A stretch of DNA of 64,000 bases from contig CAYQZX010000022.1 of assembly GCA_964422165.1 (NCBI GenBank), positions 65,002 to 129,001 on the forward strand, written 5' to 3'. Position numbers and translations under genes: made by a program. Positions 5,490 through 54,938 of this stretch are shown here, one piece after another. Origin of the DNA: an uncultured Eubacteriales bacterium. Lineage in GTDB: Bacteria; Acidobacteriota; Aminicenantia; Aminicenantales; Saccharicenantaceae. The notes below the pieces were generated by a model that worked only from the letters and a program-made list of their open reading frames with translations, was not told the DNA's origin and did no database searches. Each line of letters begins with the position of its first letter. Position 1 is the stretch's first letter.

Positions 5490-5505
5490 CTCGTGAGAAA
5501 TCGAA

Positions 5506-10681: not shown

Positions 10682-10956
10682 AGATTTTTAAGCCAGACCA
10701 GGTCTGGAAGCGATTCTCGGCCAGCCCCAGTATTACGAAATTTAAAATAGTAACACCGCTTATTATAAATCAGCTCGGGTCCCCGACCCTTTCTCTGGTA
10801 AGCCTGCTTAAAAAAATTGATTTGAGCTTTAATGGAGGTAAGAAAAGAGCTTCTGGTAGAAATGGCCTTCCTCAGGTCAGCAGTCTTAAAATTCTCTTCT
10901 CTCAAAAAATTAAGAGCCCGGGTTTACTTTTAAGATTTATCCCGTCGAGGCAACCC

Positions 10957-30800: not shown

Positions 30801-31576
30801 AAGGGCCCGGGATTTCTCATCAGAAAAATTTTATCCTGGCTGGCCACCAGTATATCCAGGTCGCCATCTTTATCTATGTCAACTGTGTAAAGGTGGTTAG
30901 CGGCCCAGTTGCAATAAATTCCCTTATTCATGAAAATGTTGGTGAAATTAAGATTTCTGGGGTCTGTTCGGGGATAAAAAACCGGGTCGGTGGCCGATCC
31001 CTGATTTATATACATAACAGCCACAAAGTTAGAATAGCTGAAACTGTCGTTTCCGTTTTTATAGAAAAAGAAATCCAGCAAACCGTCTCCGTTATAATCA
31101 CCAACGGTGATGGCAGCCGGGCCACAGGTCAGCCCGGAGTCAAAGATTTTTGAATTGTCAACCTGGTAGATTATGCCATCATCATCCCTTCCATCACCAT
31201 TAACATCATTGTAAAAATTACGGATTAGCTTCAGACTGTAATTGGCTCCGCTGCTTATATCCAGCCCCACCAAATCTGGTTTACCGTCTCCGTCAAAATC
31301 GCCGGCATCGCAAACGTATATTCTGGCGCCCATCCCAGTAGGTACAGTTATATCAAAGTTGGCTCCCAATCGGTTGAGCTTTACCGGGCCAGGTGGCCAG
31401 TTGGCGGCCGTGGTGTTATCCACATCTTTGAAATCAATATTGTTAAAATTTTCTGTAAATCTGAAGGTTATTTCAATACACTGCTGAGGTTGAGGCTGCT
31501 GAGCGCTGAATTTCAGGGCGGCCAGAACGGTAGCTATAATCAGCAAGCTTATTAAAAAGCATTTTTTTCTTATCAT
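27815..31576 (-). CDS. pilY1: PilY1-like type IV pilus tip adhesin / biogenesis factor with an FG-GAP-repeat N-terminal half
   Basis: Signal peptide. At least six FG-GAP/integrin-like Ca-binding loops ([54 protein letters not shown]). The C-terminal beta-propeller carries the PilY1 signature [25 protein letters not shown]. It is the last gene of the minor-pilin operon. Confidence 0.7.
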   Translation of the reverse strand: [1253 protein letters not shown]

Positions 31577-31654
31577 TTCACTTCTCCTCTTCCCGATTCC
31601 TTCGGGATTTCAAATTGCTTTTTTTCTTTTAATCTCGTTGTTTTTTTAAGCAAT

Positions 31655-32338
31655 TTATAACTCCGGAGTTTCAACTTCTATTTCCAAACGACAGGTAGCC
31701 AGAATTCTATCGGTCAGCCTCGGACCAGACCTAACCACACCGATACAGACCATAAGGACATCTCTCGGATCCGAAGCCTGTCCGGTGCCGGCCTCATCAT
31801 CTATCAGGAAAACAGTGTATCGATAACGGAGGTCGAGGTTTCCGTTTCGGTCAAGGATGAATGGTTGCTCAAAAAAGACCACCTGTTGAGGATTATCAGC
31901 CAGACCGTCTCCGTCCTGGTCTAAAAGCCTTATAATCTGTTCATCGGTCAGGCGGCGGAAGTAAAGTGGATTGGGTGTTCTGGGGTCGTCATTTAAAAAT
32001 GGGATATCAATTCCTGTTGGCTGAGTCAGATAGTGATCTCCAAAATTAGCCCATTGTCCGCTGCCAAAGAAATCCTCAATGGTGGCCCGGGCTGCATCAA
32101 AGCCCGCCTCAGCGGCATTAAAGGCTTCTTCCTGGTAGCGCATGGTGGCTGAAACTTTTGGACCAGAGCTGGTTACGGTCAGCACAGCCACTCCTACCGT
32201 CATCATGAAAGCCAGGACCAGAATGACTACTACCAGGCCAGAACCTGCGGGCTTATTTTTATTTTTACCGTTACCTGTTTCTTTCATTTCCGGCTCTCCC
32301 AGAAAATTTTGCTGAAAAACATTATGGTTCATTTTCAT
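31655..32338 (-). CDS. pilX: PilX-like minor pilin / pilus assembly protein
   Basis: Single N-terminal TM helix (LVVVILVLAFMMTVGVAVL) after a basic leader, in the operon position between pilW and pilY1. Start overlaps the pilW stop by 4 bp. The start codon is uncertain. Confidence 0.55.
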   Translation of the reverse strand: MKMNHNVFQQNFLGEPEMKETGNGKNKNKPAGSGLVVVILVLAFMMTVGVAVLTVTSSGPKVSATMRYQEEAFNAAEAGFDAARATIEDFFGSGQWANFGDHYLTQPTGIDIPFLNDDPRTPNPLYFRRLTDEQIIRLLDQDGDGLADNPQQVVFFEQPFILDRNGNLDLRYRYTVFLIDDEAGTGQASDPRDVLMVCIGVVRSGPRLTDRILATCRLEIEVETPEL

Positions 32339-33495
32339 CTCTGCCCGGTATTATAAATATTCAGATTAAGATTCCTGATGTTAACCGTAGTCTCCAGGAC
32401 AAAGCGGCGGTGGTAATCATCAGCTGTAGCCCCAGGAGAATCAGATACAGCTGGCCTTCGGTAGTTATGGATGTTGGCGGGCACTCTGCCTGAGACCGAG
32501 ACAAAACGATTGGGAGTGCGGCCGACCAAAATTATTCTTATCTGGCGAATTCGCGAAACTTCATCATCTGTCCAATCCGACCGCCAGGGCCTGAAACCAT
32601 CAAGTTCCCCATTGTCGTTAAAATCTCCGTTGTATTCAAACTGCAGGTTTTCAATGTTTTGAGCCAGGGGTAGATGAATGCCATTATTGGTACAGTAGAG
32701 TATGCCTGGTTCTCCCACGTATCCATTCTGCCCCGGAGTTAGTCCGGAATATTGACCGGTAACATCAAGCCAGAATTCTTTGACATTGGGAAACATTATG
32801 TATCCCCCGTCATAATTGTTAGGATCACATTCAGTGCCTGCGGTTAATCCACGGGGCGGATTGAGGTCTGGAGCCTGTCCGGGTGGGAAATTCATTTTGC
32901 TTGATGAAAATTCAACATTATGGATGTATCTAGTAACGGCTGTTCGGCACGGTGATTGAGGATTGGGAAAAATAATCACCACTCTTCTTTCGTAAAATGC
33001 TTCAGGGTAGGGATAGGAGGCAAAAGCTCCGGCTTCAATTTCAACCACAGCGGCTGCTCCCTGATAATTTTCTATTCTTAAAACCAGAGGGTCATCAATA
33101 TTTCCCAGAATTCTCAACCGGTCTGGTTCGACTTCTCCTCCCTGATTTTCATTATTCCATCCTTCCAGGAAAAACATTTCAAATCCGGCGGGCATACCCA
33201 CACCAGTCATCCTGATGTCCCTGGTCATCAGGAAAAGGGCGGAGCGGACATCGTGCTGAAGCTCGGCGTACTGCTGCTGGTCTACTGAGATCTGGTTGCT
33301 TCGAGAATAAAGCGCCATAGCTCCAATTATTACTACTAACATAATGGCCGACGCTACCAGGACTTCAATCAGGGTGAAACCCGGTGTTTTTTGCTTTTTG
33401 GTATTCATTTTTTTATTCTTGAAAAATTTTTTTCTGATATAAATCACAGTTTTCTCCGTCTCTCTTTTATAAAAATCAGGAAAAGTCCTGTTCAT
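32335..33495 (-). CDS. pilW: PilW-like minor type IV pilin
   Basis: Prepilin motif KTPG|FTLIEVLVA followed by a hydrophobic helix; 386 aa. The start at 33495 has an AGGAGA RBS, but an internal Met at 33408 would give a conventional 9-aa leader. Confidence 0.6.
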   Translation of the reverse strand: MNRTFPDFYKRETEKTVIYIRKKFFKNKKMNTKKQKTPGFTLIEVLVASAIMLVVIIGAMALYSRSNQISVDQQQYAELQHDVRSALFLMTRDIRMTGVGMPAGFEMFFLEGWNNENQGGEVEPDRLRILGNIDDPLVLRIENYQGAAAVVEIEAGAFASYPYPEAFYERRVVIIFPNPQSPCRTAVTRYIHNVEFSSSKMNFPPGQAPDLNPPRGLTAGTECDPNNYDGGYIMFPNVKEFWLDVTGQYSGLTPGQNGYVGEPGILYCTNNGIHLPLAQNIENLQFEYNGDFNDNGELDGFRPWRSDWTDDEVSRIRQIRIILVGRTPNRFVSVSGRVPANIHNYRRPAVSDSPGATADDYHRRFVLETTVNIRNLNLNIYNTGQR

Positions 33496-33504
33496 TTTTT
33501 TCTC

Positions 33505-33990
33505 CTATCTGCTGATAATGGTATGAATCTGAGCCCGGGCCCGGTAGCGGTCAGGATTAGCAATTAGCTGGGCGGCGGCAACGTTTTGAGCAGAAATGGG
33601 AAAAACCAGAACCTGAACATCAAAACCGACCGTACCAATGGCTAATGAAGAATTTATAGTTGTAATTCTCCTGAAATCCAGGGTCCCATCCCCATTAATA
33701 TCTATCAGCTCATCTGCAGGCCGATTAGTTAAGGCTGTGAGCTCATCTGAGGTCAGAGTTCTCAGAAAGTCAATCTGCTGCTGGGCCAGAAAAATAGCGT
33801 TACTCATCTCATTGGATCGGAGATTTTGCATCACTGCCAGGGTGAAAAGCTGGGCTAAACTTACAAAAACTACTGTTACCAGAGCTAGGCTGATGATGGT
33901 TTCTATAAGGGTAAAACCCTCTTTTTTTGGTTTATTAAAGCAGCTTTTAACCTTTTTACTCTTTCTTATTATTTGAATGATTGATTTCAT
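33505..33990 (-). CDS. pilV: PilV-like minor type IV pilin
   Basis: KEG|FTLIETIISL prepilin cleavage/methylation motif, a hydrophobic N-terminal helix, and the size and operon position typical of PilV. Confidence 0.6.
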   Translation of the reverse strand: MKSIIQIIRKSKKVKSCFNKPKKEGFTLIETIISLALVTVVFVSLAQLFTLAVMQNLRSNEMSNAIFLAQQQIDFLRTLTSDELTALTNRPADELIDINGDGTLDFRRITTINSSLAIGTVGFDVQVLVFPISAQNVAAAQLIANPDRYRARAQIHTIISR

Positions 33991-34010
33991 GCTTTCTTAC
34001 CCCTTCTCCC

Positions 34011-34541
34011 TTAACTTCTTGCTTTGCGGTAGCCAATTGAACCACCAGCGTAAATGGTTATAATCCTTTGGTCCTCCTGAGCTAAATTTTTTAATTTTTG
34101 ACTCTGGAGGACAATTCGAAAATTCTGGGGGGTAGTAAAGCTGTAGTTAGCTACCATTCCGAGTGGAGAAAAAACGATAGTCCTGTCGACAACATTTTCC
34201 AGGATTACAGGATTAAATTTTCTGGGGATGGTTTTCTGGATGAATTTTGGTACCGGCTTCCAGGCAAAAGTGGGAGTATTCCCGGTTAATTCTCCTTCTT
34301 CTACCTCGATGAGATAACGCCAGTCATTGTTTTCCTGGAAAAACCGCACCCGGCAGTGGACTTTTTCGTTCACTGCAATGTAGCGGGCAGCTTCTAAGGT
34401 AGTGAGCAGCTCCCGTGCGGCACTGTCCAGAGACCTGTTTTCGAGAATGTTTAAGATGCTGGGGTAGGAAGCAGCCAGAATGATTCCAATTATCCCCAGA
34501 ACAACGATGATTTCAATAAGAGTAAACCCTTCTTTTTTCAT
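34011..34541 (-). CDS. fimU: FimU/FimT/GspH-like type IV minor pilin, first gene of the operon
   Basis: MKKEG|FTLIEIIVVLGIIGIILA is a textbook class III signal peptide with a 5-aa leader, Gly-1, Phe+1 and Glu+5. Confidence 0.7.
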   Translation of the reverse strand: MKKEGFTLIEIIVVLGIIGIILAASYPSILNILENRSLDSAARELLTTLEAARYIAVNEKVHCRVRFFQENNDWRYLIEVEEGELTGNTPTFAWKPVPKFIQKTIPRKFNPVILENVVDRTIVFSPLGMVANYSFTTPQNFRIVLQSQKLKNLAQEDQRIITIYAGGSIGYRKARS

Positions 34542-35046: not shown

Positions 35047-37164
35047 TTACCTATTGAGAATCAGGTTCTCAATGAAGAATTCCATCATTCGGTCCAATCT
35101 GAGGCTGGTGTGTCCCAGGTCCGGACCAACCTGAACTTCAAAGCTCTTATTAGCTCTCTGCAGAGCCTGGATGAGCTGCATAGCGTTGTTGGGATGGACA
35201 TTATTATCAGCAGTCCCGTAGTAAATCATCAGCCGGCCTTTAAGGTTGTTAATATAATTCATGGCATTGCCGTTTTTGTATCCTTCCTTGTTCTCCTGAG
35301 GAATCCACATATAGCGTTCGGTGTAAATAGTGTCGTAGTGCTCCCAGGCGGTCACAGGAGAGGAGGCACAGGCGGCGGCAAAAACATCAGGGTATCTGAG
35401 TAGAGCCATGATGGAAGCATAACCTCCGTAAGAGGTACCAAAGATACCCACTCTGGAGCCGTCTACATAGGGCCTCTGGCTTAAAGCCTTAACTCCAGTT
35501 GCCTGGTCGTCTATTTCTACTACCCCGAGTTTCTGGTAGATAGCGTCCAGAAAGCGCTTGCCCCGGCCTCCAGCGCTTCTGGAGTCAAGGGAAGCTACCA
35601 GAAACCCAAATTCGGTTATCGGGTTTGGAGTGATGAAGGTTTCTCTGGCGCCGTTGGTACCCGGCCCAGCATAGACGCTGACCAGTAGCGGGTATTTTTT
35701 GCTCGGGTCAAAATTAGAAGGAAACTGGAGAAGACCGTAAAGCTCGGTCTGACCATCGGCTGCCTTAAATGTAAAAAGTTCGGCTTTCTTCAGCCCCAGA
35801 GCTTCAAATTTGCTCAGGTCTGACCTGGCCAGCTCAGCTACCAGGCGGCCATCAGTGGTATAAACTCTGGTAAAAGGTGGCAGGTTGTGAGTTTGAGCCA
35901 CCGTTACAAAATGCTTAAAATCGGGGGATAAATCTATCTGATGGTTATAAGTTGGGTCAGTCAAACGGCGGTCGTTTTTTCCGCTCAGGGCGACCCGGTG
36001 AAGTTGAACTTTCATGTGATTGTCGCCGCTTCTGGCAGTGTAGTAAACCTGGCCAGCAGCTTCGTCCACTCCAATGACATTAACCACGTCAAATTGATGT
36101 CTGGTCAGAGTAGCCAGGAGTTTTCCGCTTAAATCATAGAGATAAAGGTTTTTAAAACCGGTTCTTTCGGAAACCAGAATGAATCTCTTTCCGTCTTTAA
36201 GCCAGGTGATGGCTGGCGAATTTTCTGTCCAGGAAGGAGGCCATTCTTCTCGCACCACCAATCTTGTTTTTCCTGTTTCCGGGTCGGCAGCAACCAGCTC
36301 AGTTATATTCTGGCGGCGGTTAGCTCGGAAGAAAAGAATCTCACGCCCGTCTTTTGTCCAGTTGATGCCGTAGACATAGTGGCCCACCACCTCATCAGAA
36401 AAAGGTTGACCGTCACGAACGTCAATAATTGTCATCTTCTTGGTTTTGAGGTTATACACCAGAACATCTACCACAGGATTGGGTTCACCGGCCTTGGGGT
36501 AAGGCTCAATGTCCATTTTGCTGTAGAGCTTTGTCTGGTCTAACTGAAGAAAATAGTCGGGCACTTTTTTTTCGTCAAATCTGTAGAAAGCCAGCTTCTG
36601 GCTATCTGGTGACCACCACATAGAAGTAATCTGGTCGAGCTCCTCACCATAAACCCAGGAAGCTGTTCCGTATTTTATTCGGTTTTTATCCGAACCGTCG
36701 GTGGTGATGGCAGTCTCAGTTTGAGTGGCCACATCCACCAGGTAAACATTCCGGTCCTTGTAGATGGCTTTGAATTTTTTATCGGGAGATTCGTAGGTAG
36801 TAAACTGGCGTCCCCTTTCTGGCATTCCTGCCCGACGCCCAAAGGGTCCGGGCGGCTGTTCCTGAGATTTTCCTATTTCGGTGAGTTTTTTGGTTTTCAG
36901 CTCAAAACGCCATTGTTTTCCATCCCTGACAAATTCAAGGGCCTGGCCGTTATCCTTCCAGGTAACCCTGAGCGCTCCAGATTTAACGGCTTCCCTTATT
37001 TCTCTGGAAATTCTTTCGTAACGGTCATAGTTCGGATAGGTTTTGAGTCGGTCCTGGGGAAAAAGGGAAGATGACAGAATTGTTAGCTGGAGAATTAATG
37101 CTGTAATGAGAAAAAAGAAGGCTTTGCTGGCTGTCAGCAGCCGGGATTCGTTTTTGTGGTTCAT
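35047..37164 (-). CDS. Dipeptidyl-peptidase IV-like serine peptidase (S9B family), secreted
   Basis: N-terminal signal/anchor, DPP4-type beta-propeller, and a C-terminal alpha/beta hydrolase with GTSYGGY nucleophile elbow and Asp/His (YGTADNNVH, LGHT). I chose the start at Met 37164 after a GGAGGT RBS. Confidence 0.8.
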   Translation of the reverse strand: MNHKNESRLLTASKAFFFLITALILQLTILSSSLFPQDRLKTYPNYDRYERISREIREAVKSGALRVTWKDNGQALEFVRDGKQWRFELKTKKLTEIGKSQEQPPGPFGRRAGMPERGRQFTTYESPDKKFKAIYKDRNVYLVDVATQTETAITTDGSDKNRIKYGTASWVYGEELDQITSMWWSPDSQKLAFYRFDEKKVPDYFLQLDQTKLYSKMDIEPYPKAGEPNPVVDVLVYNLKTKKMTIIDVRDGQPFSDEVVGHYVYGINWTKDGREILFFRANRRQNITELVAADPETGKTRLVVREEWPPSWTENSPAITWLKDGKRFILVSERTGFKNLYLYDLSGKLLATLTRHQFDVVNVIGVDEAAGQVYYTARSGDNHMKVQLHRVALSGKNDRRLTDPTYNHQIDLSPDFKHFVTVAQTHNLPPFTRVYTTDGRLVAELARSDLSKFEALGLKKAELFTFKAADGQTELYGLLQFPSNFDPSKKYPLLVSVYAGPGTNGARETFITPNPITEFGFLVASLDSRSAGGRGKRFLDAIYQKLGVVEIDDQATGVKALSQRPYVDGSRVGIFGTSYGGYASIMALLRYPDVFAAACASSPVTAWEHYDTIYTERYMWIPQENKEGYKNGNAMNYINNLKGRLMIYYGTADNNVHPNNAMQLIQALQRANKSFEVQVGPDLGHTSLRLDRMMEFFIENLILNR

Positions 37165-37354
37165 GTTACCTCCAGGCTTAAAAGTTTCACTAAAATTAGA
37201 TGAAATTATACTCATCAGCCCCAAAAAAATCAGCAAAAAATTAAATCCGTAGATCAGTATAAAAAAGGAGAAAACCAAATTTATCCAGGAAAAAGAGCCA
37301 GCTCCGGTCAGTTGACAACTGGCTGTCCTTAAATTAAACTTAAAAAGAATTTCT

Positions 37355-38000: not shown

Positions 38001-39371
38001 TCAGAGTTCCGGGTGCCTGGCCTTCATTTCTTTCAGTCGTTTGGCCAGAACGCCTGACAGCAACAGCAGTCCTATAAGATTGGGGAAAGCCATGAAAGCA
38101 TTGGCGATATCTCCCATGAAAAAGACAATCTCAATCGAGACCACCGCTCCGATAAAGGTCAGAGCAATGAAGACCAGGCGGTAGGGCATAGCTATCTTAA
38201 TGCCGAACAGATACTTTAAGCACTGTTCTCCGTAGTAGCACCAGCCGATAAGGGTGGTGTAGCCGAAAAAGAAAGAGCAGACTGAGACAATTAAGCCGCC
38301 GACATGGGGCAGGGTCCTGGAAAAGGCGGTTACGGTCATGGCCGAACCAGAAACCCCGCTGGTCCAGACTCCAGACGACAGGTTGATAAGGGCGGTAAAG
38401 GTGCAAACCAGGATGGTGTCGATGAAGACTTCCATCACGCCGATGAGACCCTGGTGGAGGGGGCTGGGAGTCTGAGCCGCAGCATGAGCAATGGGGGCGC
38501 TGCCCAGTCCGGCTTCGTTGGACAGGATGCCGCGCCTGGCCCCGAACTGGATGGCATTTTTAATGGTGGCTCCGAGAAAGCCGCCCATAGCCGCAGCTGG
38601 AGTAAAGGCATATTCAAAAATCAGGAAAAAGGCTTTAGGCAGAGCCCCTATATTATCGATGAGAACTATAATTCCGGCTCCGAGATAAAGAACAATCATA
38701 GCCGGAACCAGCCTTTCGGCTACCGCCCCTATTCTTTTGATCCCGCCAATTATCACCAGTCCAACAAAAAAGGTTATTATCGAGCCAGTAATAGCCGGCG
38801 GAATACCGAATTGAGTCTTAAAGGCCAGGGACATCTGATTGCTCTGCATCATATTTCCGGTGCCGAAGAGTGAAGCAAAAGCCCCGCAAACAGCAAAGAA
38901 TCCGGCCAGGAAAATAGCAAATCTGGTCCTGTTTAGACCGTTTTTTATGTAGTACATTGGCCCGCCGGCGATGGTGCCATCAGGATGTTTTTCCCGGTAA
39001 AGGACCCCGAGGAAAGCTTCAGAAAATTTGGTAGCCATGCCCAGGAAGCCGCAGACCCACATCCAGAAAATGGCTCCCGGCCCACCCCAGTAAAGGGCAG
39101 TGGCTACTCCAGCAATGTTTCCATTCCCTACAGTAGCAGCCAGAGCAGTGGAGACCGCGGCAAATGGAGAAACATCACCTTCACCACCACCTTTTCTGGA
39201 ACGTCGGCTAAACATCACCTTAAAAGAAGTACCAAGCCTGGTGAACTGAAGGAAGCCGATTCTTATGGTCAGCAGAAGACCAACGCCAAACAGGATGGGA
39301 ACCATGATGGTCCAGATATTGGAAGCAGTTTTGTCCAGGAAGGAAGCCAGGCTTTCCAGAAATTTTTCCAT
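38001..39371 (-). CDS. Alanine/glycine:cation symporter (AGCS family)
   Basis: The N-terminal PILFGVGLLLT...GEGDVSPFAAVSTALAATVGNGNIAGVATA is the AGCS hallmark; 456 aa; about 11 TM helices. Confidence 0.8.
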   Translation of the reverse strand: MEKFLESLASFLDKTASNIWTIMVPILFGVGLLLTIRIGFLQFTRLGTSFKVMFSRRSRKGGGEGDVSPFAAVSTALAATVGNGNIAGVATALYWGGPGAIFWMWVCGFLGMATKFSEAFLGVLYREKHPDGTIAGGPMYYIKNGLNRTRFAIFLAGFFAVCGAFASLFGTGNMMQSNQMSLAFKTQFGIPPAITGSIITFFVGLVIIGGIKRIGAVAERLVPAMIVLYLGAGIIVLIDNIGALPKAFFLIFEYAFTPAAAMGGFLGATIKNAIQFGARRGILSNEAGLGSAPIAHAAAQTPSPLHQGLIGVMEVFIDTILVCTFTALINLSSGVWTSGVSGSAMTVTAFSRTLPHVGGLIVSVCSFFFGYTTLIGWCYYGEQCLKYLFGIKIAMPYRLVFIALTFIGAVVSIEIVFFMGDIANAFMAFPNLIGLLLLSGVLAKRLKEMKARHPEL

Positions 39372-45504: not shown

Positions 45505-46479
45505 CTACAGCCAGCCTTGCTTTTGGTACCAGGTGAGGGTTTCTCTCAGCGCCTTCTGAAAATCCCAGACGGTCTCAAACTCCAGTTCCCGCTTGATTTT
45601 AGAAACATCAGCCACCCAGGAGAGTTTTTCCAGATCCTGACATTTACTGAGGTTCAAAGTGCTGGGTTTTTTTGAAAATCTGGAAAGAAGTTCAGAACAT
45701 CCGGCCACTCCTCTGGCCGCCCAGAGGGGCACTCTAATTGTCGTTACCTTTCTCCCCAAAATTCTGGCCGATTCCAGCCCTATCTCTTCCCAGCTTCTGG
45801 GCACAGGGTCTGCTACATTGTAAATTTCTCCACTCTTTAGACCAGGCTGGGCGGCTTTAAGCAATGCCCTTACCAGGTCATCCACATAGCAAAGGCTCAT
45901 CAAAATCGGCCTGGTAAAAGATAGCAATAAGCCCCTCTTAATTAGCTGAAAGAACTGTAAGAAATCTAGGTCACCAGGTCCGTAGACAGCTGCAGCCCGC
46001 AGGATTATGACCTGGAGCTCATTTTTCTTTTTTAAGACTTCAGCCTCAGCCTGCAGCTTGCTGTGGCCGTAGGGCGAAGCCGGGCAGGGAGAAGAGTCTT
46101 CACTAACCGGTTCTCCTGAGGAAGAAGGTCTTCCGGCGGCCAGGCTGCTCAGATGCACAAACCTCGGTCTGAGTCCACTGCGCAGCAGAGAGAGGAGTAA
46201 GCTTGCCGTTCCCTTCTGGTTTACAGTATAATAATCAGCTGGACTCAGAGCTTTGGTCAGTCCAGCTAAGTGAAAGACCACTTCACAGTCACCTGGAAGG
46301 GACGGAAGCGACAGGAGGTCTCCTTTTAAAAGGTAGAGGTTGTTGAATGATTTGAGCCGGTTCAGTTTAGCGGGGTTTCTGACGAGGGCATAAACTTGGT
46401 TCTGAGGATTGCTGGAGAGCAAATGTTCGACCAGGCGGGTACCGATGAATCCGGTGGCACCGGTAACCAGGGCAATCAT
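45505..46479 (-). CDS. NAD(P)-dependent epimerase/dehydratase-family SDR protein
   Basis: N-terminal Rossmann VTGATGFIG; a YxxxK-type catalytic region (YGHSK); 324 aa. Confidence 0.7.
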   Translation of the reverse strand: MIALVTGATGFIGTRLVEHLLSSNPQNQVYALVRNPAKLNRLKSFNNLYLLKGDLLSLPSLPGDCEVVFHLAGLTKALSPADYYTVNQKGTASLLLSLLRSGLRPRFVHLSSLAAGRPSSSGEPVSEDSSPCPASPYGHSKLQAEAEVLKKKNELQVIILRAAAVYGPGDLDFLQFFQLIKRGLLLSFTRPILMSLCYVDDLVRALLKAAQPGLKSGEIYNVADPVPRSWEEIGLESARILGRKVTTIRVPLWAARGVAGCSELLSRFSKKPSTLNLSKCQDLEKLSWVADVSKIKRELEFETVWDFQKALRETLTWYQKQGWL

Positions 46480-47802: not shown

Positions 47803-49644
47803 GTGACCTTTATGCAAATTTATAAAGCCCGATGGCAGCTTAAATCTGCAGCTCTGGTTCTTATCCTGTGGTTCATCTTTGTTTCTTCTCTTGAAGCTTC
47901 CAGCCGCATCCTACCGCTTTCCCAGATTAAGCCCGGGATGAAGGGAATTGGAAGAAGCGTTTTTTCTGGCAGCCAGGTCGAAGAGTTTGAGGTGGAAATT
48001 CTGGGAGTGGTTGAGAACCAGCAGCCCCGGAGGAGCTGGATTCTGGCTAGGCTTAAAGGGCGGGGACTGGAAAGTACCGGGGTGATTTCCGGGATGAGCG
48101 GCAGCCCGGTTTACATTGACGGGCAGCTAATAGGGTCTGTGGCTTTCAGCTATGCTTTCACTAAAGAAGCTGTGGCTGGGCTAACCCCGATTGAAGAGAT
48201 GCTGGAAATCCCGGCCAGAGTTCAGGGAAAGAGAATTCAGTTTAGCACAGCTAAGGATTTACTCGCTGAAAGTTTGATTCAGGAGCATTTAGGGCAGACC
48301 TTTATTACCCTCAGCTCCCGTCAGGAGGAAGCCTGGAATCATGACCAGGGTATAATTCCCGTCAGAGTACCGCTAATTTTTTCCGGATTTTCAGAAAGAG
48401 CTTTTCAGGCTTTCAAACCTTTTTTCAGCGACCGGAATTTTCAACCGGTCTTAAGTTCCACAGAGGCCACTCCTCAGAGCTTAAAGCTGAGCCCTCAACC
48501 TGTTGTATTTAAAGAAGGTGAGGCCGTTGGGGTTCAGCTTATGACTGGAGACTTGGATCTGACTGCTGTGGGCACGGTAACCTACGTTGATGGGAACAGA
48601 ATCCTGGCTTTTGGCCATCCTTTTTATAATCTTGGTCCAGTAGATTACGGCCTGACCAGGGCTGAGATTCTGGGAGTGGTCCCGAGTCTTCAGAGCTCTT
48701 TTAAGCTGGCTTCGACAGGCCAGCTAGTCGGAAGGGTGGTTCAGGACAGAACCTCTGGGGTGCTGGGAGAAATTGGAGTTTTGCCCCGTTATGTCCCTGT
48801 CAATGTTGAAATTCAACGAAGCCCACTGAATCTGAAACAGTTCAAGTTGCGGCTGGTTAATGACCAGATTTTAACTCCAGCCCTCCTGAATCTCGGGCTT
48901 TATACCCTGATGAGCAGTGAAGAAAGGTCTTACGGAAACCTCTCTGTGGATTTTGAAGCCGATTTGTTTTTGGAACAGGGACTGAGTGTCCGCCTTGAAG
49001 ACCTGTTCACCGGAAATCTTGATAACCCCATCACCAGCCTTTCCAGCCTGGTAGCAGCTGTAGTTTATCTCTTAAAAAATAACGAATTCAAAGAAGTTGC
49101 CATCAACCAGGTTGAAATAAAAATCAAGGTTGTGGAGGAAATCCGGACGGCCACCCTGGAAAAAGTTTTGCTTGATAAATATGAAGTTTCTCCTGGAGAA
49201 ATAGTCAAGGTAAAAACCTATTTTCGCACCTTCAGCGGAGAGGTCAAAACTGAAGAGGTGGAGTTTATGACTCCGGCTCTTCCTTCAGGTTCAGAGTTTG
49301 AACTGGTGGTAGCTGAGGCCAGCTACATCCAGCAGTTAGAAAGAGAGCTTTATCGAGTCCAGGATTTTACCCCCCGCAACCTCAGTCAATTAATAAGGAT
49401 TCTCGGCAATCTGAGAAAAAACAACCGCATTTATTTTAGAATAATCGCTCCCCGGTCCGGGCTGTTTTTGAAAGGGGAAGAGCTGCCAAATTTACCACCA
49501 AGCTTCAAGAATATGTTCATCTCGCCGAGAGCCTCGACCGTTAATCTAATTGAGCTGAACCGTTCAACCCTGAGTGAGTACCAGCTGCCGATTCCTTATG
49601 TATTTAAAGGGGCTCTGACAGTTCCGATAAAAATAAAAAAGTAA
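47803..49644 (+). CDS. Secreted protein carrying SpoIVB/S55-peptidase-like motifs (GMSGSPV Ser motif and AFGHP His motif) in an unusual order
   Basis: Signal/anchor helix. VISGMSGSPVYIDGQLIGSV sits near residue 100 and AVGTVTYVDGNRILAFGHPF near residue 270. The roughly 330-aa C-terminal region has no recognisable motif. Confidence 0.4.
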   Translation: MTFMQIYKARWQLKSAALVLILWFIFVSSLEASSRILPLSQIKPGMKGIGRSVFSGSQVEEFEVEILGVVENQQPRRSWILARLKGRGLESTGVISGMSGSPVYIDGQLIGSVAFSYAFTKEAVAGLTPIEEMLEIPARVQGKRIQFSTAKDLLAESLIQEHLGQTFITLSSRQEEAWNHDQGIIPVRVPLIFSGFSERAFQAFKPFFSDRNFQPVLSSTEATPQSLKLSPQPVVFKEGEAVGVQLMTGDLDLTAVGTVTYVDGNRILAFGHPFYNLGPVDYGLTRAEILGVVPSLQSSFKLASTGQLVGRVVQDRTSGVLGEIGVLPRYVPVNVEIQRSPLNLKQFKLRLVNDQILTPALLNLGLYTLMSSEERSYGNLSVDFEADLFLEQGLSVRLEDLFTGNLDNPITSLSSLVAAVVYLLKNNEFKEVAINQVEIKIKVVEEIRTATLEKVLLDKYEVSPGEIVKVKTYFRTFSGEVKTEEVEFMTPALPSGSEFELVVAEASYIQQLERELYRVQDFTPRNLSQLIRILGNLRKNNRIYFRIIAPRSGLFLKGEELPNLPPSFKNMFISPRASTVNLIELNRSTLSEYQLPIPYVFKGALTVPIKIKK

Positions 49645-49699
49645 GGTTGAAGGAGAAAGCTTTCTAACGGGGCTTTGCTCCAGATAAGGCAGGTTAGAG

Positions 49700-51892
49700 A
49701 TGAAAGAAATCTTAAAACTGAGTTTAAAATTGTTTTTGGTTTTTATGCTGGTGACCAGTCTTCAGGCTGTCTCTCCCAGGCAGTGGGAGTTGAGGAGTCG
49801 GGAGGATTTTCTGAAAGGTAAATTCTCAGGAACCTCTCTTTCTTCAGATGGAGTTCTTTCCATAGGCTTCCGGATTGAAAAGATCGAACTTCCGGTCGAG
49901 GAATTTTATCTCTCAATAGCTAATGGTCCAGATGGCAGCCTGTATGTTGGTACTGGACATGGGGGCCGGGTTTATCGAATAGGTCGGGACAGGAAAGCTG
50001 AACTTTATTTTCAGGCTGCGGAAATGGATGTTACCTGCCTGGCGGTTGACCCTAAGGGTATTCTTTATGTCGGGACCTCGCCCAATGGCAAAATCTACAA
50101 GGTAACTTCGAAGAATAAGGGAGAGGTATTTTTTGACCCCCAGGAAAAATACCTCTGGGATCTACTGCTCACCGATAAAGGCAATCTGCTGGCTGCGGTG
50201 GGTGAAAGTGCCGGTGTCTATGAGATTACGCCATCAGGTTCCGGTAAAATGTTGTTTAAGGCCCGGGATAATCATATCCTGCGTCTTGTCTTAAGCCGGA
50301 ATGGTGAACTACTGGCCGGCAGCGGAGGACGGGGTCAGCTCTATAAAGTTTCTTTAAGTGGTCGGGTGAGTGTGGTTTTCGATTCCGGTTACGAAGAAAT
50401 CAGAAACATAGTCCAGACCCGGGAAGGCTATATCTATGTCAGCGCCTCAGGCCAGCCTTCAAGAATGGTAGCCACAGTTTCTACTGCTTCTGAAACCGAG
50501 CCGGTCAGAATCGACACTGAAGTCAGTCTGGTGGTTTCCACATCTGGAGCAGCCAGGGTGGCGTCCGAAACCGCTCCGGCTCGAGCCGAGAAGAAGCCTG
50601 TCGGGACTGTTTCCGGGGCCGTCTTTGAGATATCTCCTGAAGGCTTAAGCCGGAAAATCTGGAGTTCTGCTGAGGAAATGGTTTACAGCCTGATACCGGA
50701 CAGTGACCGATTGCAATTGCTTCTCGGCACCGGTAATCAGGGCCGAATCTATGGTCTGGACACTCGCGGCCAGTTTGAACTTCTGGCTCAGGAAAGCTCG
50801 GAGCAAATTTTTGAGTTGTATCGTCTGGACAATCAAATTCTGGTTCTCGGCAACAATCCCTGTTTTCTGGGAATTCTCCAGCCCGGTCAGAATTTTTCCG
50901 GCGAGTATTTGAGCCCGGTGCTGGATGCCAGAATTCTTTCTAACTGGGGCCGGATAAGCTGGGAAGCCGAATTTATTCCAGGCTCCACAGTTCAGGTGCA
51001 ATCCCGGAGCGGCAACACCGCTGAGCCAGACGAAACCTGGAGTGACTGGTCGCCACCTTATGCTCGTCCCGATGAAAAGATTTTAAGTCCAGCCGGCCGT
51101 TACCTTCAGCTTAAGGTCAATTTAAAAGGTCAGGGAGGGAAAGCCCTGCCAAGGGTTCAGCGAGTTCTGGTGTTTTACCAGCAGAACAACGTAGCCCCTG
51201 AAATTACCCGGCTGGAAATCCTTCCACCCAACCAGGTTTTTATCAAGCCACCAGAGCAGGATGAGGCCATCCTGGGCCTGGATCAGGCTTCACGTGAATC
51301 AGCCAGAAAAAAAGATGAATCAGACTTTTACCTGACCCCCAAAAAAGGGAAGCGTCAGGGATTCAGGACATTAAAATGGGAAGCTTCGGATGAGAATGAA
51401 GATGACCTCACCGCCAGCATTTACCTCAGAAAAGAGGGAGAAACGGACTGGAGGTTGATGCAGGAAAACCTAACCGATAAGGTTTTTTCTTTTGACACCC
51501 GCAATTTTCCGGATGGAACCTACTGGCTTAAAGTGGAGGTAACCGACCTTCCTTCTAATCCCCCAGGGACTGAAAAAAAAGCGGAAAAAACCAGTCCTCC
51601 TGTGGTAATAGACAATTCTTTACCGGTGATTAAAAATTTACAGGTTGCAAGAACAGGAGAGAGGTTGGAAGTTTCCTTCACAGCTGAAGATGCCTATTCC
51701 TACATAGCTGAGGTCAAATACTTAGTTAAATCGGATGACTGGAAGCTGGTTTTTCCGGTGGATGGTATTTGTGATTCTCGGAGTGAAAATTTTAAGTTCA
51801 ACCTGAAACTCCCCCAGGCTTCAGATAACCTTCTGATAATTCGCGTCAAAGACAGCTTTGGTAATGTTGGGGTTTATCATCACCGTTTTTAA
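49700..51892 (+). CDS. Secreted beta-propeller repeat protein with a C-terminal Ig/Fn3-like domain
   Basis: Signal peptide ending LQA. Repeated G..G.(I/V)Y(K/R)(V/I) blade motifs (GHGGRVYRI, SPNGKIYKV, SAGVYEI, GRGQLYKV). The C-terminal region resembles Y_Y_Y/Ig-like sensor domains (FPDGTYWLKVEVTD). Confidence 0.45.
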   Translation: MKEILKLSLKLFLVFMLVTSLQAVSPRQWELRSREDFLKGKFSGTSLSSDGVLSIGFRIEKIELPVEEFYLSIANGPDGSLYVGTGHGGRVYRIGRDRKAELYFQAAEMDVTCLAVDPKGILYVGTSPNGKIYKVTSKNKGEVFFDPQEKYLWDLLLTDKGNLLAAVGESAGVYEITPSGSGKMLFKARDNHILRLVLSRNGELLAGSGGRGQLYKVSLSGRVSVVFDSGYEEIRNIVQTREGYIYVSASGQPSRMVATVSTASETEPVRIDTEVSLVVSTSGAARVASETAPARAEKKPVGTVSGAVFEISPEGLSRKIWSSAEEMVYSLIPDSDRLQLLLGTGNQGRIYGLDTRGQFELLAQESSEQIFELYRLDNQILVLGNNPCFLGILQPGQNFSGEYLSPVLDARILSNWGRISWEAEFIPGSTVQVQSRSGNTAEPDETWSDWSPPYARPDEKILSPAGRYLQLKVNLKGQGGKALPRVQRVLVFYQQNNVAPEITRLEILPPNQVFIKPPEQDEAILGLDQASRESARKKDESDFYLTPKKGKRQGFRTLKWEASDENEDDLTASIYLRKEGETDWRLMQENLTDKVFSFDTRNFPDGTYWLKVEVTDLPSNPPGTEKKAEKTSPPVVIDNSLPVIKNLQVARTGERLEVSFTAEDAYSYIAEVKYLVKSDDWKLVFPVDGICDSRSENFKFNLKLPQASDNLLIIRVKDSFGNVGVYHHRF

Positions 51893-52148: not shown

Positions 52149-52715
52149 TTATCTGGTTTTTACCCTTTCCAGATACTTGTCTTCTCTGGTATCGACTCTG
52201 ATGACATCACCTTCTTTGATGAACTGAGGAACCTGGATGACCAGTCCGGTTTCCAGTTTGGCCGGCTTGGAACTGGCGCTCTGAGTAGCTCCTTTAAGCA
52301 TCGGTTCTGTTTCTACCACGGTTAAATCCACGGTGTTGGGCAGCCTGATGCCGACCGGCTGTCCTTCATACATTTCTATTGTCAGAACTAGGTCGGGAAT
52401 TAAGTAGTTTAGGCCGTCACCGATAGCTTCCAGGTCCAGCTTAATCTGTTCGTAGGTCTGGAGGTTCATGAAGTAGAATTCGTCACCGCTGCGATAAAGA
52501 TAGACCATCTCCACTTCTTCTAAATAAGCCTGTTCCACTCGGTCTTCAGAGCGGAATCGGTATTCTAACTGAGAATTGTCCTTGATATTGCGGAGTTTGG
52601 TCTGAACCATGGCCTTCCAGCGGCCCGGGGTGATTAGCTGGCAATCCAGAACTCGGTAAAGTTGTCCTTCCAGCTTGATGATCATTCCTCTGCGAATTTT
52701 GGTGGCATCAATCAT
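52149..52715 (-). CDS. efp: Translation elongation factor P with Arg at the position of the modified Lys/Arg (loop TPGRW)
   Basis: Full-length alignment to EF-P (KOW-like domain I, OB domains II and III; C-terminal VPQFIKEGDVIRVDTR..YLERV). The loop reads ITPGRWKAM where E. coli has VKPGKGQAF. Confidence 0.85.
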   Translation of the reverse strand: MIDATKIRRGMIIKLEGQLYRVLDCQLITPGRWKAMVQTKLRNIKDNSQLEYRFRSEDRVEQAYLEEVEMVYLYRSGDEFYFMNLQTYEQIKLDLEAIGDGLNYLIPDLVLTIEMYEGQPVGIRLPNTVDLTVVETEPMLKGATQSASSKPAKLETGLVIQVPQFIKEGDVIRVDTREDKYLERVKTR

Positions 52716-52825
52716 CGAGCCTCCTTGCGAGAAAAGAAAATTACTCTTCCCGTTTAGACAGGAAAGATCTCTGGTAAGGTTAGATTATTATTTTACAAAA
52801 AATTCCTGGTTTGTCTATTTAGCCA

Positions 52826-53947
52826 CTAAAATTTTCGTCTTTCCAGGCTCAGTCCCCGGTCAACTCTCACAAGGTAAGCCCGGCCGCCGACTTTTTCTAT
52901 GGCTCTGGCTACACCTTCGGCATTCTCGGGAGCGTAGGCAAACATACAGCCGCCGCCACCTGAACCGTTGATTTTTCCGCCGAGGGCTCCATTTTCCAGA
53001 GCGGCCTGGAGCATCCGGTCTATTTTGGGAGTGGAGATGCCTACCAGTTCTCTCAGCACTTTCTGATGCTCGGTGAGCAGGCGGCCGAATTCCTGATGGT
53101 CAAAGTTTTTTTGCTGAAAGAGTTTAAGACCTTCTCTGGTAATCTCCCGGTTCAGCACAGCTCCGCAGAGAGGGTTTTTAATTTCCGGTGGCAAGTCCTG
53201 ACTGAACTTTAATATTTCTGCTTCGGATAAAGTTTGAAGGTCCAGGTCCGGAAGCTTTTTTTTGATGATTTCAAGTCCGGCCCTGACCCTTTCCCGGACA
53301 GAGCCCAGAAGACCGGTGGTGTTCTTCTTTTCCAGAGAATCTCCGAGGACAAAACTGCCGAAGTCCTCGCGCAGGCGAGTAATTTTGAGTTCCCCGGCAA
53401 ACTGAATCCAGAGTACTCCACCTAAAGCTGAGGTGTAATGGTCCATTTTTCCGCCTGGTTCCTGAAACTCCACTACTTCTGCCTGATGAGCCAGCTCTGC
53501 TACAGCTTCTGGTGAAGGAGCCAGGTCAGTCCGACTACAGATTTCCAGCAGGAACCGGGTCCAGGCCACCACCATAGCCGAGGAACTGGAAGTGCCGGCG
53601 TTTATCGGGATCTCACCGCGCAGGGTACATTCCCAGCCGTTCTTAAACTCACAGCCCAGCCTCAACAGCAGGTTAAAGGTGCTCCGCAGGTAATCCCGGT
53701 CTTTCTGGTAAGGGAGCTCACTTTCAGGAACTATTCTTTCTTCCTCTCCGATATCCGGAAGATGAATCAAGAAATCTGGACTTCTTCTGGGTTTTCCTGA
53801 GACGTAAAACCTCAGACTGATAGCTGCGGCCACTACCGGCAGGCCCAGGTAATCCTGGTGCTCACCAAAAAGGCAAATTCTTCCGGGGGATGAAATCAAC
53901 AAGGTTTCTTCGATCATCTTCTCTTCCATCTGTCTTAGTTTAGCCAT
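52826..53947 (-). CDS. GHMP-family sugar kinase (galactokinase-like)
   Basis: SSPGRICLFGEHQDYLG (galactokinase signature), PINAGTSSSSA (GHMP ATP-binding motif 2) and NGSGGGGC (motif 3). Confidence 0.7.
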   Translation of the reverse strand: MAKLRQMEEKMIEETLLISSPGRICLFGEHQDYLGLPVVAAAISLRFYVSGKPRRSPDFLIHLPDIGEEERIVPESELPYQKDRDYLRSTFNLLLRLGCEFKNGWECTLRGEIPINAGTSSSSAMVVAWTRFLLEICSRTDLAPSPEAVAELAHQAEVVEFQEPGGKMDHYTSALGGVLWIQFAGELKITRLREDFGSFVLGDSLEKKNTTGLLGSVRERVRAGLEIIKKKLPDLDLQTLSEAEILKFSQDLPPEIKNPLCGAVLNREITREGLKLFQQKNFDHQEFGRLLTEHQKVLRELVGISTPKIDRMLQAALENGALGGKINGSGGGGCMFAYAPENAEGVARAIEKVGGRAYLVRVDRGLSLERRKF

Positions 53948-54170: not shown

Positions 54171-54938
54171 ATGAGAATAATTTTTCTGGGTACCGGTGGG
54201 GCTGTGCCCACGGCCCACCGGGATAACACCAGTTTTTTAATAGAAAGCAGCGGTCGGCTTATTCTGGTTGATTCTCCAGGGTCCTTAACCCAGAAAATCC
54301 TGAAAGCAGGCTGTTCTCCTCGACAGGTTTCGGCCGTTTTCCTCAGTCATATTCATGCTGATCATGTTTACGGACTGCCTTCGTTTATCCACAGCTTAAT
54401 GCTGGAAAATCAGACTGTTCTGCTTTTCGGTTCGGAAGAAACTATCTCTTTCTGTCTCCAGCTGTTGGACCTGTTTAATCTCAGAAAAGAAAAAATATTG
54501 TGCCGGGTAGAGCCGCGGGTTCTTCATCCTGAAATCAGGTCTGAAATTTTCCCGGGCCTGGCTGTGACCGGCTTTATAGTGCCTCATCATTCTTCTTCTC
54601 TGGCATTTCTGTTTGAGACTCAGGAAAGAAAGATTCTTTACTCTGGCGATACTCCGGTTTACCCGCCTTTATTTGAGATAGCTTCCCGGGCTGACATTCT
54701 GGTGCATGACTGCAGCGTTCCTTTCCGCTATTTTGAATTGCTCCCATTTCTCAAATCCAGGCACAGCAACTCCTTAGAACTTGGAAAGACAGCCCGGGCT
54801 TACGGGGTGAAATATCTGGTGCCCTGCCATTTTTTTAGCGACCTGGATTTTTCTATGGAGGAAATAGAGGCGGAAATCAGAGAAAATTATGAGGGACAGC
54901 TCTTCCTCCCGAGTGATTTTTCTGAATTGGAATGGTAG
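54171..54938 (+). CDS. MBL-fold metallo-hydrolase (RNase Z / PhnP-like)
   Basis: LSHIHADHVYGL (HxHxDH) motif, a downstream His, and a later Asp/His (HDCS, CHF). Confidence 0.7.
   Translation: MRIIFLGTGGAVPTAHRDNTSFLIESSGRLILVDSPGSLTQKILKAGCSPRQVSAVFLSHIHADHVYGLPSFIHSLMLENQTVLLFGSEETISFCLQLLDLFNLRKEKILCRVEPRVLHPEIRSEIFPGLAVTGFIVPHHSSSLAFLFETQERKILYSGDTPVYPPLFEIASRADILVHDCSVPFRYFELLPFLKSRHSNSLELGKTARAYGVKYLVPCHFFSDLDFSMEEIEAEIRENYEGQLFLPSDFSELEW

What the first reader, a model, noticed from the sequence alone, without database searches (positions are those of the whole stretch)
52149..53947. EF-P with Arg in a TPGRW loop and no EarP, EpmA or YmfI nearby; a GHMP sugar kinase is the upstream neighbour
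Known EF-P activation systems target Lys (EpmAB beta-lysylation in a PGKG loop, YmfI 5-aminopentanolylation) or Arg (EarP rhamnosylation in an SGR(N/G) loop). This EF-P has Arg at the aligned tip position, but in a PGRW context unlike EarP-type loops. The only adjacent gene in the same orientation is a galactokinase-like GHMP kinase, an enzyme type that makes sugar-1-phosphates. This could indicate an unmodified EF-P subfamily or an undescribed modification, possibly glycosylation. The adjacency may also be coincidental.
Basis: partly seen in the sequence, partly recalled or inferred. Interest (0 to 1): 0.5.

Follow-up and report, generated by a model that had tools for sequence, protein, structure and literature searches.

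The report
Orphan Arg-tip EF-P; kinase neighbour incidental
This is the ordinary translation factor EF-P of an uncultured Aminicenantes bacterium with an unusual Pro-Gly-Arg-Trp-Lys loop that fits none of the known activation systems, and the sugar kinase next to it is a dispensable neighbour rather than part of a modification pathway.

Summary
Window 52149..52715 (-) encodes a 188-aa EF-P with the loop TPGRWKAM, and Arg32 aligns without gaps to E. coli Lys34. Window 52826..53947 (-) encodes a galactokinase-like GHMP kinase. No ORF of 150 aa or more in the 64 kb matches EarP, EpmA, EpmB or YmfI-type domains.

The proposed kinase link is not supported. Among 80 Aminicenantes species the orthologous efp sits in the same syntenic block. 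Its loop is R-W-K in 54, K-G-Q/H in 19, N-W-K in 6 and R-L-K in 1. The kinase lies directly upstream in 39 of 72 informative loci: 16/18 Lys-type, 20/47 R-W-K and 3/6 Asn-type. It is the least conserved neighbour in the block. In the window's clade a conserved promoter-like motif separates it from efp. Elsewhere, homologues of the kinase sit in symporter-kinase-nucleotidyltransferase(-epimerase) sugar-salvage operons.

The EF-P belongs to an Acidobacteriota lineage with P-G-[R/N]-[W/L/K]-[K/R] loops. It keeps the Pro at -2, which published work found in only 2.33% of Arg-tip EF-Ps and reports as apparently incompatible with functional rhamnosylation. Arg-tip EF-Ps with no known modifier are already documented (206 of 741), and some work unmodified. 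I read this as a new member of that group, probably unmodified. Whole-genome absence of EarP could not be tested.

The parts
52149..52715 (-). efp, elongation factor P, 188 aa
   Evidence: ORF. TIGR00038 scores 232.5 bits against a cut-off of 185.8, and NF001810 scores 234.5 against 161. Pfam EFP_N, EFP and Elong-fact-P_C are all present. The best solved relatives are Lys-type EF-Ps (1YBY 157 bits, 6ENJ 146 bits).
52608..52631 (-). Codons for the beta3-beta4 loop T29-P30-G31-R32-W33-K34-A35-M36 (R32 = 52620..52622)
   Evidence: Sequence and codons. Ungapped alignment to PGKG loops. R-W-K is kept in 54 of 80 species orthologues and replaced by K-G-Q/H in 19, N-W-K in 6 and R-L-K in 1.
52720..52726 (-). 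Ribosome-binding site AAGGAGG, 4 nt before the efp ATG
   Evidence: Sequence. A (G/A)AGGA(G/A) motif is conserved in the 15 species of the window's clade.
52790..52817 (-). Promoter-like element TAGACA-16 nt-TAAAAT in the kinase-efp spacer
   Evidence: Consensus scan gives 10 of 12 matches. It is the only conserved block, apart from the RBS, in an otherwise unalignable spacer across 15 species: ATAGACAAA..TTT.TTGTAAAATA. That it functions as a promoter is inferred.
52826..53947 (-). Galactokinase-like GHMP sugar kinase, 373 aa; a neighbour, not part of an EF-P system
   Evidence: Pfam GalKase_gal_bdg, GHMP_kinases_N and GHMP_kinases_C. No NCBIfam equivalog is reached. Full-length alignment to human GALK1. 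Homologues sit in symporter-kinase-NTP_transferase operons.

Best explanation
The gene is most probably the housekeeping EF-P of an uncultured Aminicenantes (Acidobacteriota) bacterium, though a second efp elsewhere in the genome was not excluded. It belongs to the large Lys-type-like EF-P family that keeps Pro at -2. Within that family it falls in an Acidobacteriota lineage whose loop has been rebuilt from P-G-K-G-Q to P-G-[R/N]-[W/L/K]-[K/R]. It is not an EarP, EpmAB, YmfI, PGKGP or EfpL type. I infer that it most likely rescues proline-stalled ribosomes without a modification on the tip residue. The nearly invariant Trp33 and Lys34 would shape the loop or provide the contacts that a modified Lys or Arg provides elsewhere. 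The reasoning is that the tip residue itself switches among Arg, Asn and Lys in orthologues. The upstream GHMP kinase is an anomeric sugar kinase of a sugar-salvage family. It lies beside efp through inherited gene order, has been lost from that position repeatedly, and in this clade efp appears to have its own promoter. Shown: gene identities, loop types, synteny statistics and the absence of known modifier domains in 64 kb. Inferred: unmodified status, the roles of W33 and K34, and promoter function.
For: Identity. Not an EarP type: Pro30 at -2 against the published rule; only 76 bits to P. aeruginosa EF-P 3OYY against 146-157 bits to Lys-type structures. Not EfpL: 146.7 bits against a cut-off of 216, and no loop extension. 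No modifier domains in the window. The nearest non-Aminicenantes relatives carry TPGN[L/K/W]R loops and come from Terriglobia, Vicinamibacterales and Wallbacteria. Orthologues at one syntenic locus carry R-W-K (54), K-G-Q/H (19), N-W-K (6) and R-L-K (1), and R and N interchange on a constant W-K background in separate branches. The kinase is upstream in 39/72 loci, with all three tip types. Neighbour conservation is propeller 66/69, S55 peptidase 61/63, amidohydrolase 58/61, MBL 39/64 and kinase 37/69. A conserved promoter-like motif lies in the spacer. In 25 of 73 metagenome loci the kinase has no efp nearby, and in many of them it sits in SSF symporter-kinase-NTP_transferase(-GalE-like) operons. 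Literature: 206 of 741 Arg-tip EF-Ps have no known modifier, and three such EF-Ps work unmodified in E. coli.
Against: Genomic data cannot distinguish an unmodified EF-P from one modified by an unknown enzyme; Brewer et al. 2026 say so explicitly. Only 64 kb of this genome and +/-10 kb around efp in relatives were examined, so EarP, a deoxyhypusine-synthase-like enzyme or another modifier could lie elsewhere. In many lineages the kinase stop overlaps or abuts the efp start (gaps -4 to +20 nt). That means co-transcription there, and the adjacency is old within the class. The roles assigned to W33 and K34 rest on conservation alone. The neighbour-joining tree on about 180 columns is low in resolution.
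Confidence: 0.6

Rival explanations
1. The EF-P is activated by a modification not yet described, on R32 or on the invariant K34, made by an enzyme encoded elsewhere in the genome. One candidate class is the deoxyhypusine-synthase-like proteins noted in some bacteria with Lys- or Asn-tip, Pro(-2) loops.
For: About half of bacterial genomes have EF-Ps of unknown type, and undiscovered modifications are expected. DHS-like proteins co-occur with some Lys/Asn-tip EF-Ps that keep P32. K34 is nearly invariant in the R/N-W-K loops. Some orphan Arg EF-Ps did not work in E. coli.
Against: No candidate enzyme co-varies with the loop type in the +/-10 kb around efp in 80 species. The tip residue toggles R/N/K among orthologues, which is hard to reconcile with a residue-specific modifier. 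No experimental link between bacterial DHS homologues and EF-P exists. In Terriglobia the +2 residue is Arg, not Lys.
Confidence: 0.25
2. One reading: the adjacent GHMP kinase makes a sugar-1-phosphate that feeds a glycosylation of the EF-P loop.
For: The kinase is galactokinase-like, so probably an anomeric sugar kinase. It lies directly upstream on the same strand, and in many relatives the genes abut or overlap. From the kinase side, 48 of 73 loci have efp immediately downstream.
Against: There is no nucleotidyltransferase or glycosyltransferase in the window or the syntenic block. The kinase is absent from the locus in 27 of 47 R-W-K species and present with Lys- and Asn-tip orthologues. 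It is the least conserved neighbour. A conserved promoter-like motif separates the genes in this clade. Homologues are found in sugar-salvage operons without efp.
Confidence: 0.03
3. An ordinary EarP system: earP and dTDP-rhamnose genes lie elsewhere in the genome and R32 is rhamnosylated.
For: There is an Arg at the tip. EarP tolerates some loop variation and can rhamnosylate non-cognate Arg EF-Ps. The whole genome was not searched.
Against: Pro at -2 occurs in only 2.33% of Arg-tip EF-Ps and is reported as apparently incompatible with functional rhamnosylation. The protein scores far lower against the EarP-type structure 3OYY than against Lys-type structures. No EarP domain was found in 64 kb, and the block around efp in 80 relatives is filled by the same unrelated genes. 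Sister lineages have Asn or Lys at the same position. The window's only epimerase/dehydratase-family protein is far below the RmlB and RmlD cut-offs.
Confidence: 0.03
4. It is an accessory EF-P paralogue, like EfpL, and a canonical Lys-type EF-P is encoded elsewhere in the genome.
For: EfpL has an unmodified Arg tip and is reported in some Acidobacteria. The genome outside the window was not searched.
Against: The protein passes the efp equivalog and fails both EfpL models. It has no loop extension. The same syntenic locus carries the Lys-type efp in sister clades, so this is the primary efp locus. [quoted passage not shown]
Confidence: 0.05

Closest known systems
Orphan arginine-type EF-Ps without EarP (Brewer et al. 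2026, PMC12931083; e.g. Deinococcus radiodurans, Nitrosomonas communis; also Thermotogota 'arginine EF-P of unknown modification', PMC11388002)
   Same: Arg at the loop tip, no EarP nearby, not EfpL, and (as far as tested) the only efp seen. Several members of the group work unmodified in E. coli.
   Different: This one keeps Pro at -2, which is rare among Arg types (2.33%). It also has Trp at +1 and Lys at +2. No member with this loop has been tested experimentally in the papers I read.
Asn-tip EF-Ps of Acidobacteriota (TPGN[L/K/W]R loops in Terriglobia, Vicinamibacterales and others)
   Same: These are the closest sequence relatives outside Aminicenantia, at about 44-55% identity. They share T-P-G, a bulky residue at +1 and a basic residue at +2. 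Some Aminicenantes orthologues are themselves N-W-K.
   Different: The tip is Arg here, and the +2 residue is Lys rather than Arg. The activation mode of the Asn-tip group is also unknown.
Lys-type EF-P modified by EpmAB (E. coli) or YmfI/YnbB/GsaB (B. subtilis)
   Same: Same seven-residue loop length, Pro at -2 and Gly at -1, and the best overall sequence similarity to solved structures. Sister Aminicenantes clades carry TPGKGQAL, close to the loop of the Lys-type EF-Ps aligned.
   Different: There is no Lys at the tip for beta-lysylation or 5-aminopentanolylation, and no EpmA, EpmB or YmfI-type domains in the window.
EarP-type EF-P (Pseudomonas, Shewanella, Neisseria)
   Same: Arg at the position equivalent to E. 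coli K34.
   Different: EarP types select against Pro at -2 and have S-G-R-N-like loops. This protein has only weak similarity to 3OYY (76 bits), and no earP lies next to efp.
Galactokinase-family GHMP anomeric sugar kinases (for the neighbouring gene)
   Same: The galactose-binding signature GR..GEHxDY, the GHMP ATP motif, the G.MD catalytic-Asp motif and a full-length alignment to human GALK1. Homologues pair with sugar-1-phosphate nucleotidylyltransferases.
   Different: It is far below every galactokinase equivalog cut-off (95.9 bits against 226.65), and its substrate is unknown.

Membership tests
Elongation factor P (TIGR00038 / PF08207+PF01132+PF09285) | Full-length match above the curated cut-off, and three-domain architecture | tested here: met
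   232.5 bits against 185.8; all three Pfam domains present.
EarP-type (rhamnosylated Arg) EF-P | Arg at the loop tip | tested here: met
   R32 aligns with the tip Lys of Lys-type EF-Ps.
EarP-type (rhamnosylated Arg) EF-P | No Pro at -2 from the tip (Volkwein 2019) | tested here: not met
   P30 is present.
EarP-type (rhamnosylated Arg) EF-P | earP (PF10093) in the genome, usually beside efp (the usual adjacency is from my own knowledge) | tested here: inconclusive
   None in the 64-kb window. The conserved genes flanking efp in 80 relatives are the same unrelated families as in the window, but not every ORF in those flanks was scanned. The whole genome is not searchable with these tools.
EpmAB-type or YmfI-type (modified Lys) EF-P | Lys at the loop tip | tested here: not met
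   The tip is Arg.
EpmAB-type or YmfI-type (modified Lys) EF-P | EpmA/EpmB or YmfI/YnbB/GsaB genes present | tested here: inconclusive
   No tRNA-synt_2, radical-SAM/LAM or adh_short domains in the window. The rest of the genome was not tested.
PGKGP unmodified EF-P subfamily | P30-G-K-G-P34 loop with two flanking prolines | tested here: not met
   The loop is P-G-R-W-K.
EfpL / YeiP | Match to the EfpL equivalog models; loop extended by two residues; co-occurrence with a canonical EF-P | tested here: not met
   NF003392 scores 146.7 against 216 and TIGR02178 scores 135.7 against 264. The loop aligns to seven-residue loops without gaps. Co-occurrence was not testable.
Galactokinase family (neighbouring gene) | Galactose-binding signature plus the GHMP N- and C-terminal domains | tested here: met
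   PF10509 40.3 bits, PF00288 45.8 bits, PF08544 57.1 bits, all above their cut-offs. Motifs align with GALK1.
Galactokinase proper (TIGR00131) or mevalonate kinase (TIGR00549) | Score above the equivalog cut-off | tested here: not met
   95.9 bits against 226.65 for galactokinase, and 122.2 against 163.05 for mevalonate kinase. The N-terminal motif has the GalK-type GR/GEHQDY rather than the MVK-type GK/GEHAVV.

The most novel reading that the evidence does not exclude
The P-G-[R/N]-[W/L/K]-[K/R] loops of Aminicenantia and other Acidobacteriota may define a sixth way of making EF-P active. It would be one of two things. Either it is a loop-intrinsic solution, in which a bulky or aromatic +1 residue and a basic +2 residue replace the modified tip, so that the tip can drift among Arg, Asn and Lys. 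Or it is an undescribed modification made by an enzyme encoded away from efp. The GHMP kinase plays no part in either.
Probability: 0.3. Interest if true: 0.55.

Novelty: new member of a known kind. Interest (0 to 1): 0.27.

Why it matters
EF-P activation chemistry is a live question. Reviews state that about half of bacterial genomes have EF-Ps of unknown type. This locus adds no new system, and the glycosylation lead is removed. It does offer a natural experiment: one class of bacteria in which orthologous EF-Ps at one locus carry K-G-Q, R-W-K or N-W-K loops. A few complementation and mass-spectrometry experiments on these three could show whether the tip residue or the +1/+2 residues carry the function in EF-Ps with no known modifier.

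Tried and rejected
1. I looked for the Acidobacteriota EF-P families in the supplement of Brewer & Wagner 2024. No supplementary text is held.

2. I could not test the whole genome for EarP, EpmA/B, YmfI, DHS, rmlABCD or a second efp. I therefore did not use the third homologue search.

3. I looked at the genomic context of Asn-tip relatives. P0125 lies on a 2-kb contig with no DNA held. P0143 (L161) has HEAT-repeat proteins upstream. I noted this but did not pursue it.

4. I considered the kinase as a mevalonate kinase, since that is its best NCBIfam and PDB bit score. I rejected this because those alignments are strongest in the C-terminal half and the N-terminal motif is galactokinase-type.

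5. I considered the window's NAD-epimerase/dehydratase (45505..46479) as a possible rhamnose-pathway gene. Its best match is HpnA-like, and it is far below the RmlB and RmlD cut-offs.

6. I did not run structure prediction. The tool returns confidence and secondary structure but no coordinates, so the packing of W33 could not have been read from it.

7. The neighbour-joining tree is used only to show that loop types and kinase losses are scattered across branches. Its rooting, and the apparent nesting of the K-G clade, are not reliable.
Full report
**What is there.** Window 52149..52715 (-) is a 188-aa ORF preceded by AAGGAGG. It passes the NCBIfam efp equivalog (TIGR00038, 232.5 bits against 185.8) and the EF-P subfamily model, and it has all three Pfam EF-P domains. 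It fails both EfpL/YeiP models (146.7 against 216; 135.7 against 264). The loop reads L-I-T-P-G-R-W-K-A-M-V (R32 = CGC, W33 = TGG, K34 = AAG). Against solved structures it aligns without gaps to the PGKG loops of Lys-type EF-Ps (1YBY 157 bits, S. aureus 6RJI 147, E. coli 6ENJ 146 with a +2 offset). R32 is therefore the residue equivalent to E. coli K34. EfpL (8S8U, 100 bits) and the EarP-type P. aeruginosa EF-P (3OYY, 76 bits) are much more distant.

The upstream same-strand ORF, 52826..53947 (-), has the GHMP N- and C-terminal domains and the galactokinase galactose-binding signature. It reaches no NCBIfam equivalog (mevalonate kinase 122 against 163; galactokinase 96 against 227). It aligns over its full length with human GALK1, including GR..GEHxDY and G.MD, whereas mevalonate kinases carry GK..GEHAVV.

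**No known modifier in the window.** Pfam scans of the ORFs of 150 aa or more, leaving out three that lie inside larger ORFs on the opposite strand, found peptidases, amidohydrolases, a type IV pilus cluster, transporters, RNase HII, an AlaX-like protein and others. They found no EarP, no tRNA-synt_2 (EpmA), no radical-SAM/LAM (EpmB), no adh_short (YmfI), no deoxyhypusine synthase, no glycosyltransferase and no nucleotidyltransferase. tblastn finds no second efp. The one epimerase/dehydratase-family gene (45505..46479) is HpnA-like and far below the RmlB and RmlD cut-offs.

**Whose gene it is.** The closest homologues are from Candidatus Aminicenantes / Saccharicenans MAGs. The exact protein occurs on 19 public contigs with the same neighbours.

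**The comparative test.** A genome-contig scan returned 80 Aminicenantes loci, one per species, at 59-96% EF-P identity.

- *Synteny.* The neighbourhood is strongly conserved: aminotransferase, S55 peptidase and beta-propeller on one side (convergent with efp), then efp, then [GHMP kinase], [MBL-fold] and amidohydrolase on the other.
- *Neighbour conservation.* Counted over informative loci: propeller 66/69, S55 peptidase 61/63, amidohydrolase 58/61, aminotransferase 44/61, MBL 39/64 and kinase 37/69. The kinase is the least conserved member of the block.
- *Loop types.* At this one orthologous locus the loop is R-W-K in 54 species, K-G-Q/H in 19, N-W-K in 6 and R-L-K in 1.
- *Kinase against loop type.* The kinase is directly upstream in 16/18 Lys-tip, 20/47 R-W-K and 3/6 Asn-tip loci.
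- *Tree.* On a loop-masked neighbour-joining tree the kinase-less loci fall in at least five separate branches, and R and N interchange on a constant W-K background (low resolution).

The adjacency is therefore old within the class, has been lost repeatedly, and does not track the Arg loop.

**Transcription.** In the window's clade (15 species) the 106-170-nt spacer is unalignable apart from the RBS and one strictly conserved block, ATAGACAAA-N10-TTT-N-TTGTAAAATA. That block coincides with the only sigma-70-like hit of the scan, TAGACA-16-TAAAAT at 52817..52790. I infer that efp has its own promoter here. In other clades the kinase stop and the efp start overlap or lie within about 20 nt, so the two are co-transcribed there. 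Those clades include several Lys-type species.

**What the kinase does elsewhere.** A metagenome scan with a kinase alignment gave 80 loci. Of the 73 informative ones, 48 have efp immediately downstream and 25 do not. In many of those 25, equally similar homologues (46-53% identity) sit between a sodium:solute symporter and an overlapping roughly 290-aa NTP_transferase, in some followed by a GalE-like epimerase. In others a GlmU-like nucleotidyltransferase, a ROK protein or a GT4 glycosyltransferase is adjacent. This is the layout of a sugar-salvage route: uptake, anomeric phosphorylation, then NDP-sugar formation. The family thus has an ordinary metabolic role. The window lacks the nucleotidyltransferase and glycosyltransferase that a protein-glycosylation cassette would need.

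**Where the EF-P sits among EF-Ps.** An exhaustive search of 50%-identity representatives shows that, beyond Aminicenantia, the nearest clusters carry TPGNLR, TPGNKR or TPGNWR loops. Cluster members are named Terriglobales, Korobacteraceae, Terriglobia, Vicinamibacterales and Wallbacteria. The window's protein is therefore a member of an Acidobacteriota-centred lineage with P-G-[R/N]-[W/L/K]-[K/R] loops: Pro at -2, a non-Lys tip, a bulky +1 residue and a basic +2 residue.

**What the literature already says.**

- Volkwein et al. 2019 found Pro at -2 invariant in Lys-type EF-Ps, present in 100% of Asn-tip EF-Ps, and present in only 2.33% of Arg-tip EF-Ps. They report that P32 seems incompatible with rhamnosylation. 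They also note DHS-like proteins in some bacteria with Lys- or Asn-tip loops, without experimental support.
- Brewer et al. 2026 count 206 of 741 Arg-tip EF-Ps, across 14 phyla, with no known modifier. They show three that work unmodified in E. coli. They also state that genomics alone cannot separate 'unmodified' from 'modified by an unknown pathway'.

The category this gene belongs to is therefore known. This particular loop has not been characterised in the papers I could read.

**How it most likely works.** Shown: it is an EF-P in the locus that holds the Lys-type efp in sister clades. It is not of any described activation type. No gene in its conserved neighbourhood tracks the loop type. 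Inferred: the tip toggles R/N/K while W33 and K34 stay nearly invariant, so a residue-specific tip modification is unlikely. [quoted passage not shown] This would be analogous to the PGKGP and EfpL solutions and to the reported importance of the +2 residue (Q36 in E. coli, P34 in Corynebacterium). I put this at about 0.6. An unknown modifier encoded elsewhere is about 0.25. An accessory paralogue is about 0.05. EarP encoded elsewhere and kinase-fed glycosylation are about 0.03 each.

**Verdict.** This is a new member of the already recognised group of Arg-tip EF-Ps without a known modifier. Its interest is modest and lies mainly in the natural K-G-Q / R-W-K / N-W-K series among orthologues.

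Noticed in passing
L001-L080 (efp at about 10001-10561 in each); window 52608..52631: Orthologous EF-Ps at one syntenic locus within a single bacterial class switch between K-G-Q, R-W-K and N-W-K loops, with positions +1 and +2 co-varying with the tip (G-Q with K; W-K with R or N). This is a natural series for testing which loop residues carry function.
   Followed up: partly
window 52790..52817 (-); spacers of L001-L014: A strictly conserved ATAGACAAA-N10-TTT-N-TTGTAAAATA block in an otherwise unalignable kinase-efp spacer across 15 species. It is probably the efp promoter of the Saccharicenans-like clade.
   Followed up: partly
L133 4321-7952; L151 5980-8892; L156 2398-5358; L154 1393-6387; L130 261-2896: Homologues of the kinase sit in symporter - GHMP kinase - sugar-1-phosphate nucleotidylyltransferase (- GalE-like epimerase) operons. 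None of the partners reaches an NCBIfam equivalog cut-off, so this looks like an uncharacterised sugar-salvage module.
   Followed up: partly
L161 679-4910 (upstream of efp at 5001-5561): Two HEAT-repeat proteins (901 and 476 aa) lie directly upstream, on the same strand, of an Asn-tip (TPGNWR) EF-P in GCA_964421195.1. Deoxyhypusine hydroxylase is a HEAT-repeat enzyme (own knowledge), so this may deserve a look, but it may equally be coincidence.
   Followed up: no
window 54171..54938 (+): An MBL-fold protein divergent from the kinase has sub-threshold matches to RNase Z (113.9 bits against a cut-off of 292.95) and a weak Anti-Pycsar Apyc1 hit. It is present in 39 of 64 relatives, so it is also a variable member of the block.
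   Followed up: no
window 47803..51892 (+): A secreted-looking 613-aa protein with an S55 (SpoIVB-like) peptidase domain and a 730-aa beta-propeller protein are the most conserved neighbours of efp (61/63 and 66/69 species). Their function is unknown.
   Followed up: no
window 8459..16581 and 35047..37278: A dense set of peptide-degrading genes: prolyl oligopeptidase S9, an M20 peptidase, three tandem amidohydrolases and a DPP IV-like S9 peptidase. There is also a sodium:alanine symporter (38001..39371).
   Followed up: no
window 27815..34541 (-): A type IV pilus minor-pilin cluster: a PilY1-like 1253-aa protein with FG-GAP repeats, PilX- and PilW-like proteins, and GspH/N-methyl pilins.
   Followed up: no
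window 26459..27337 (-): A spermidine synthase gene. Spermidine is the donor used by deoxyhypusine synthase, but no DS domain was found in the window.
   Followed up: no
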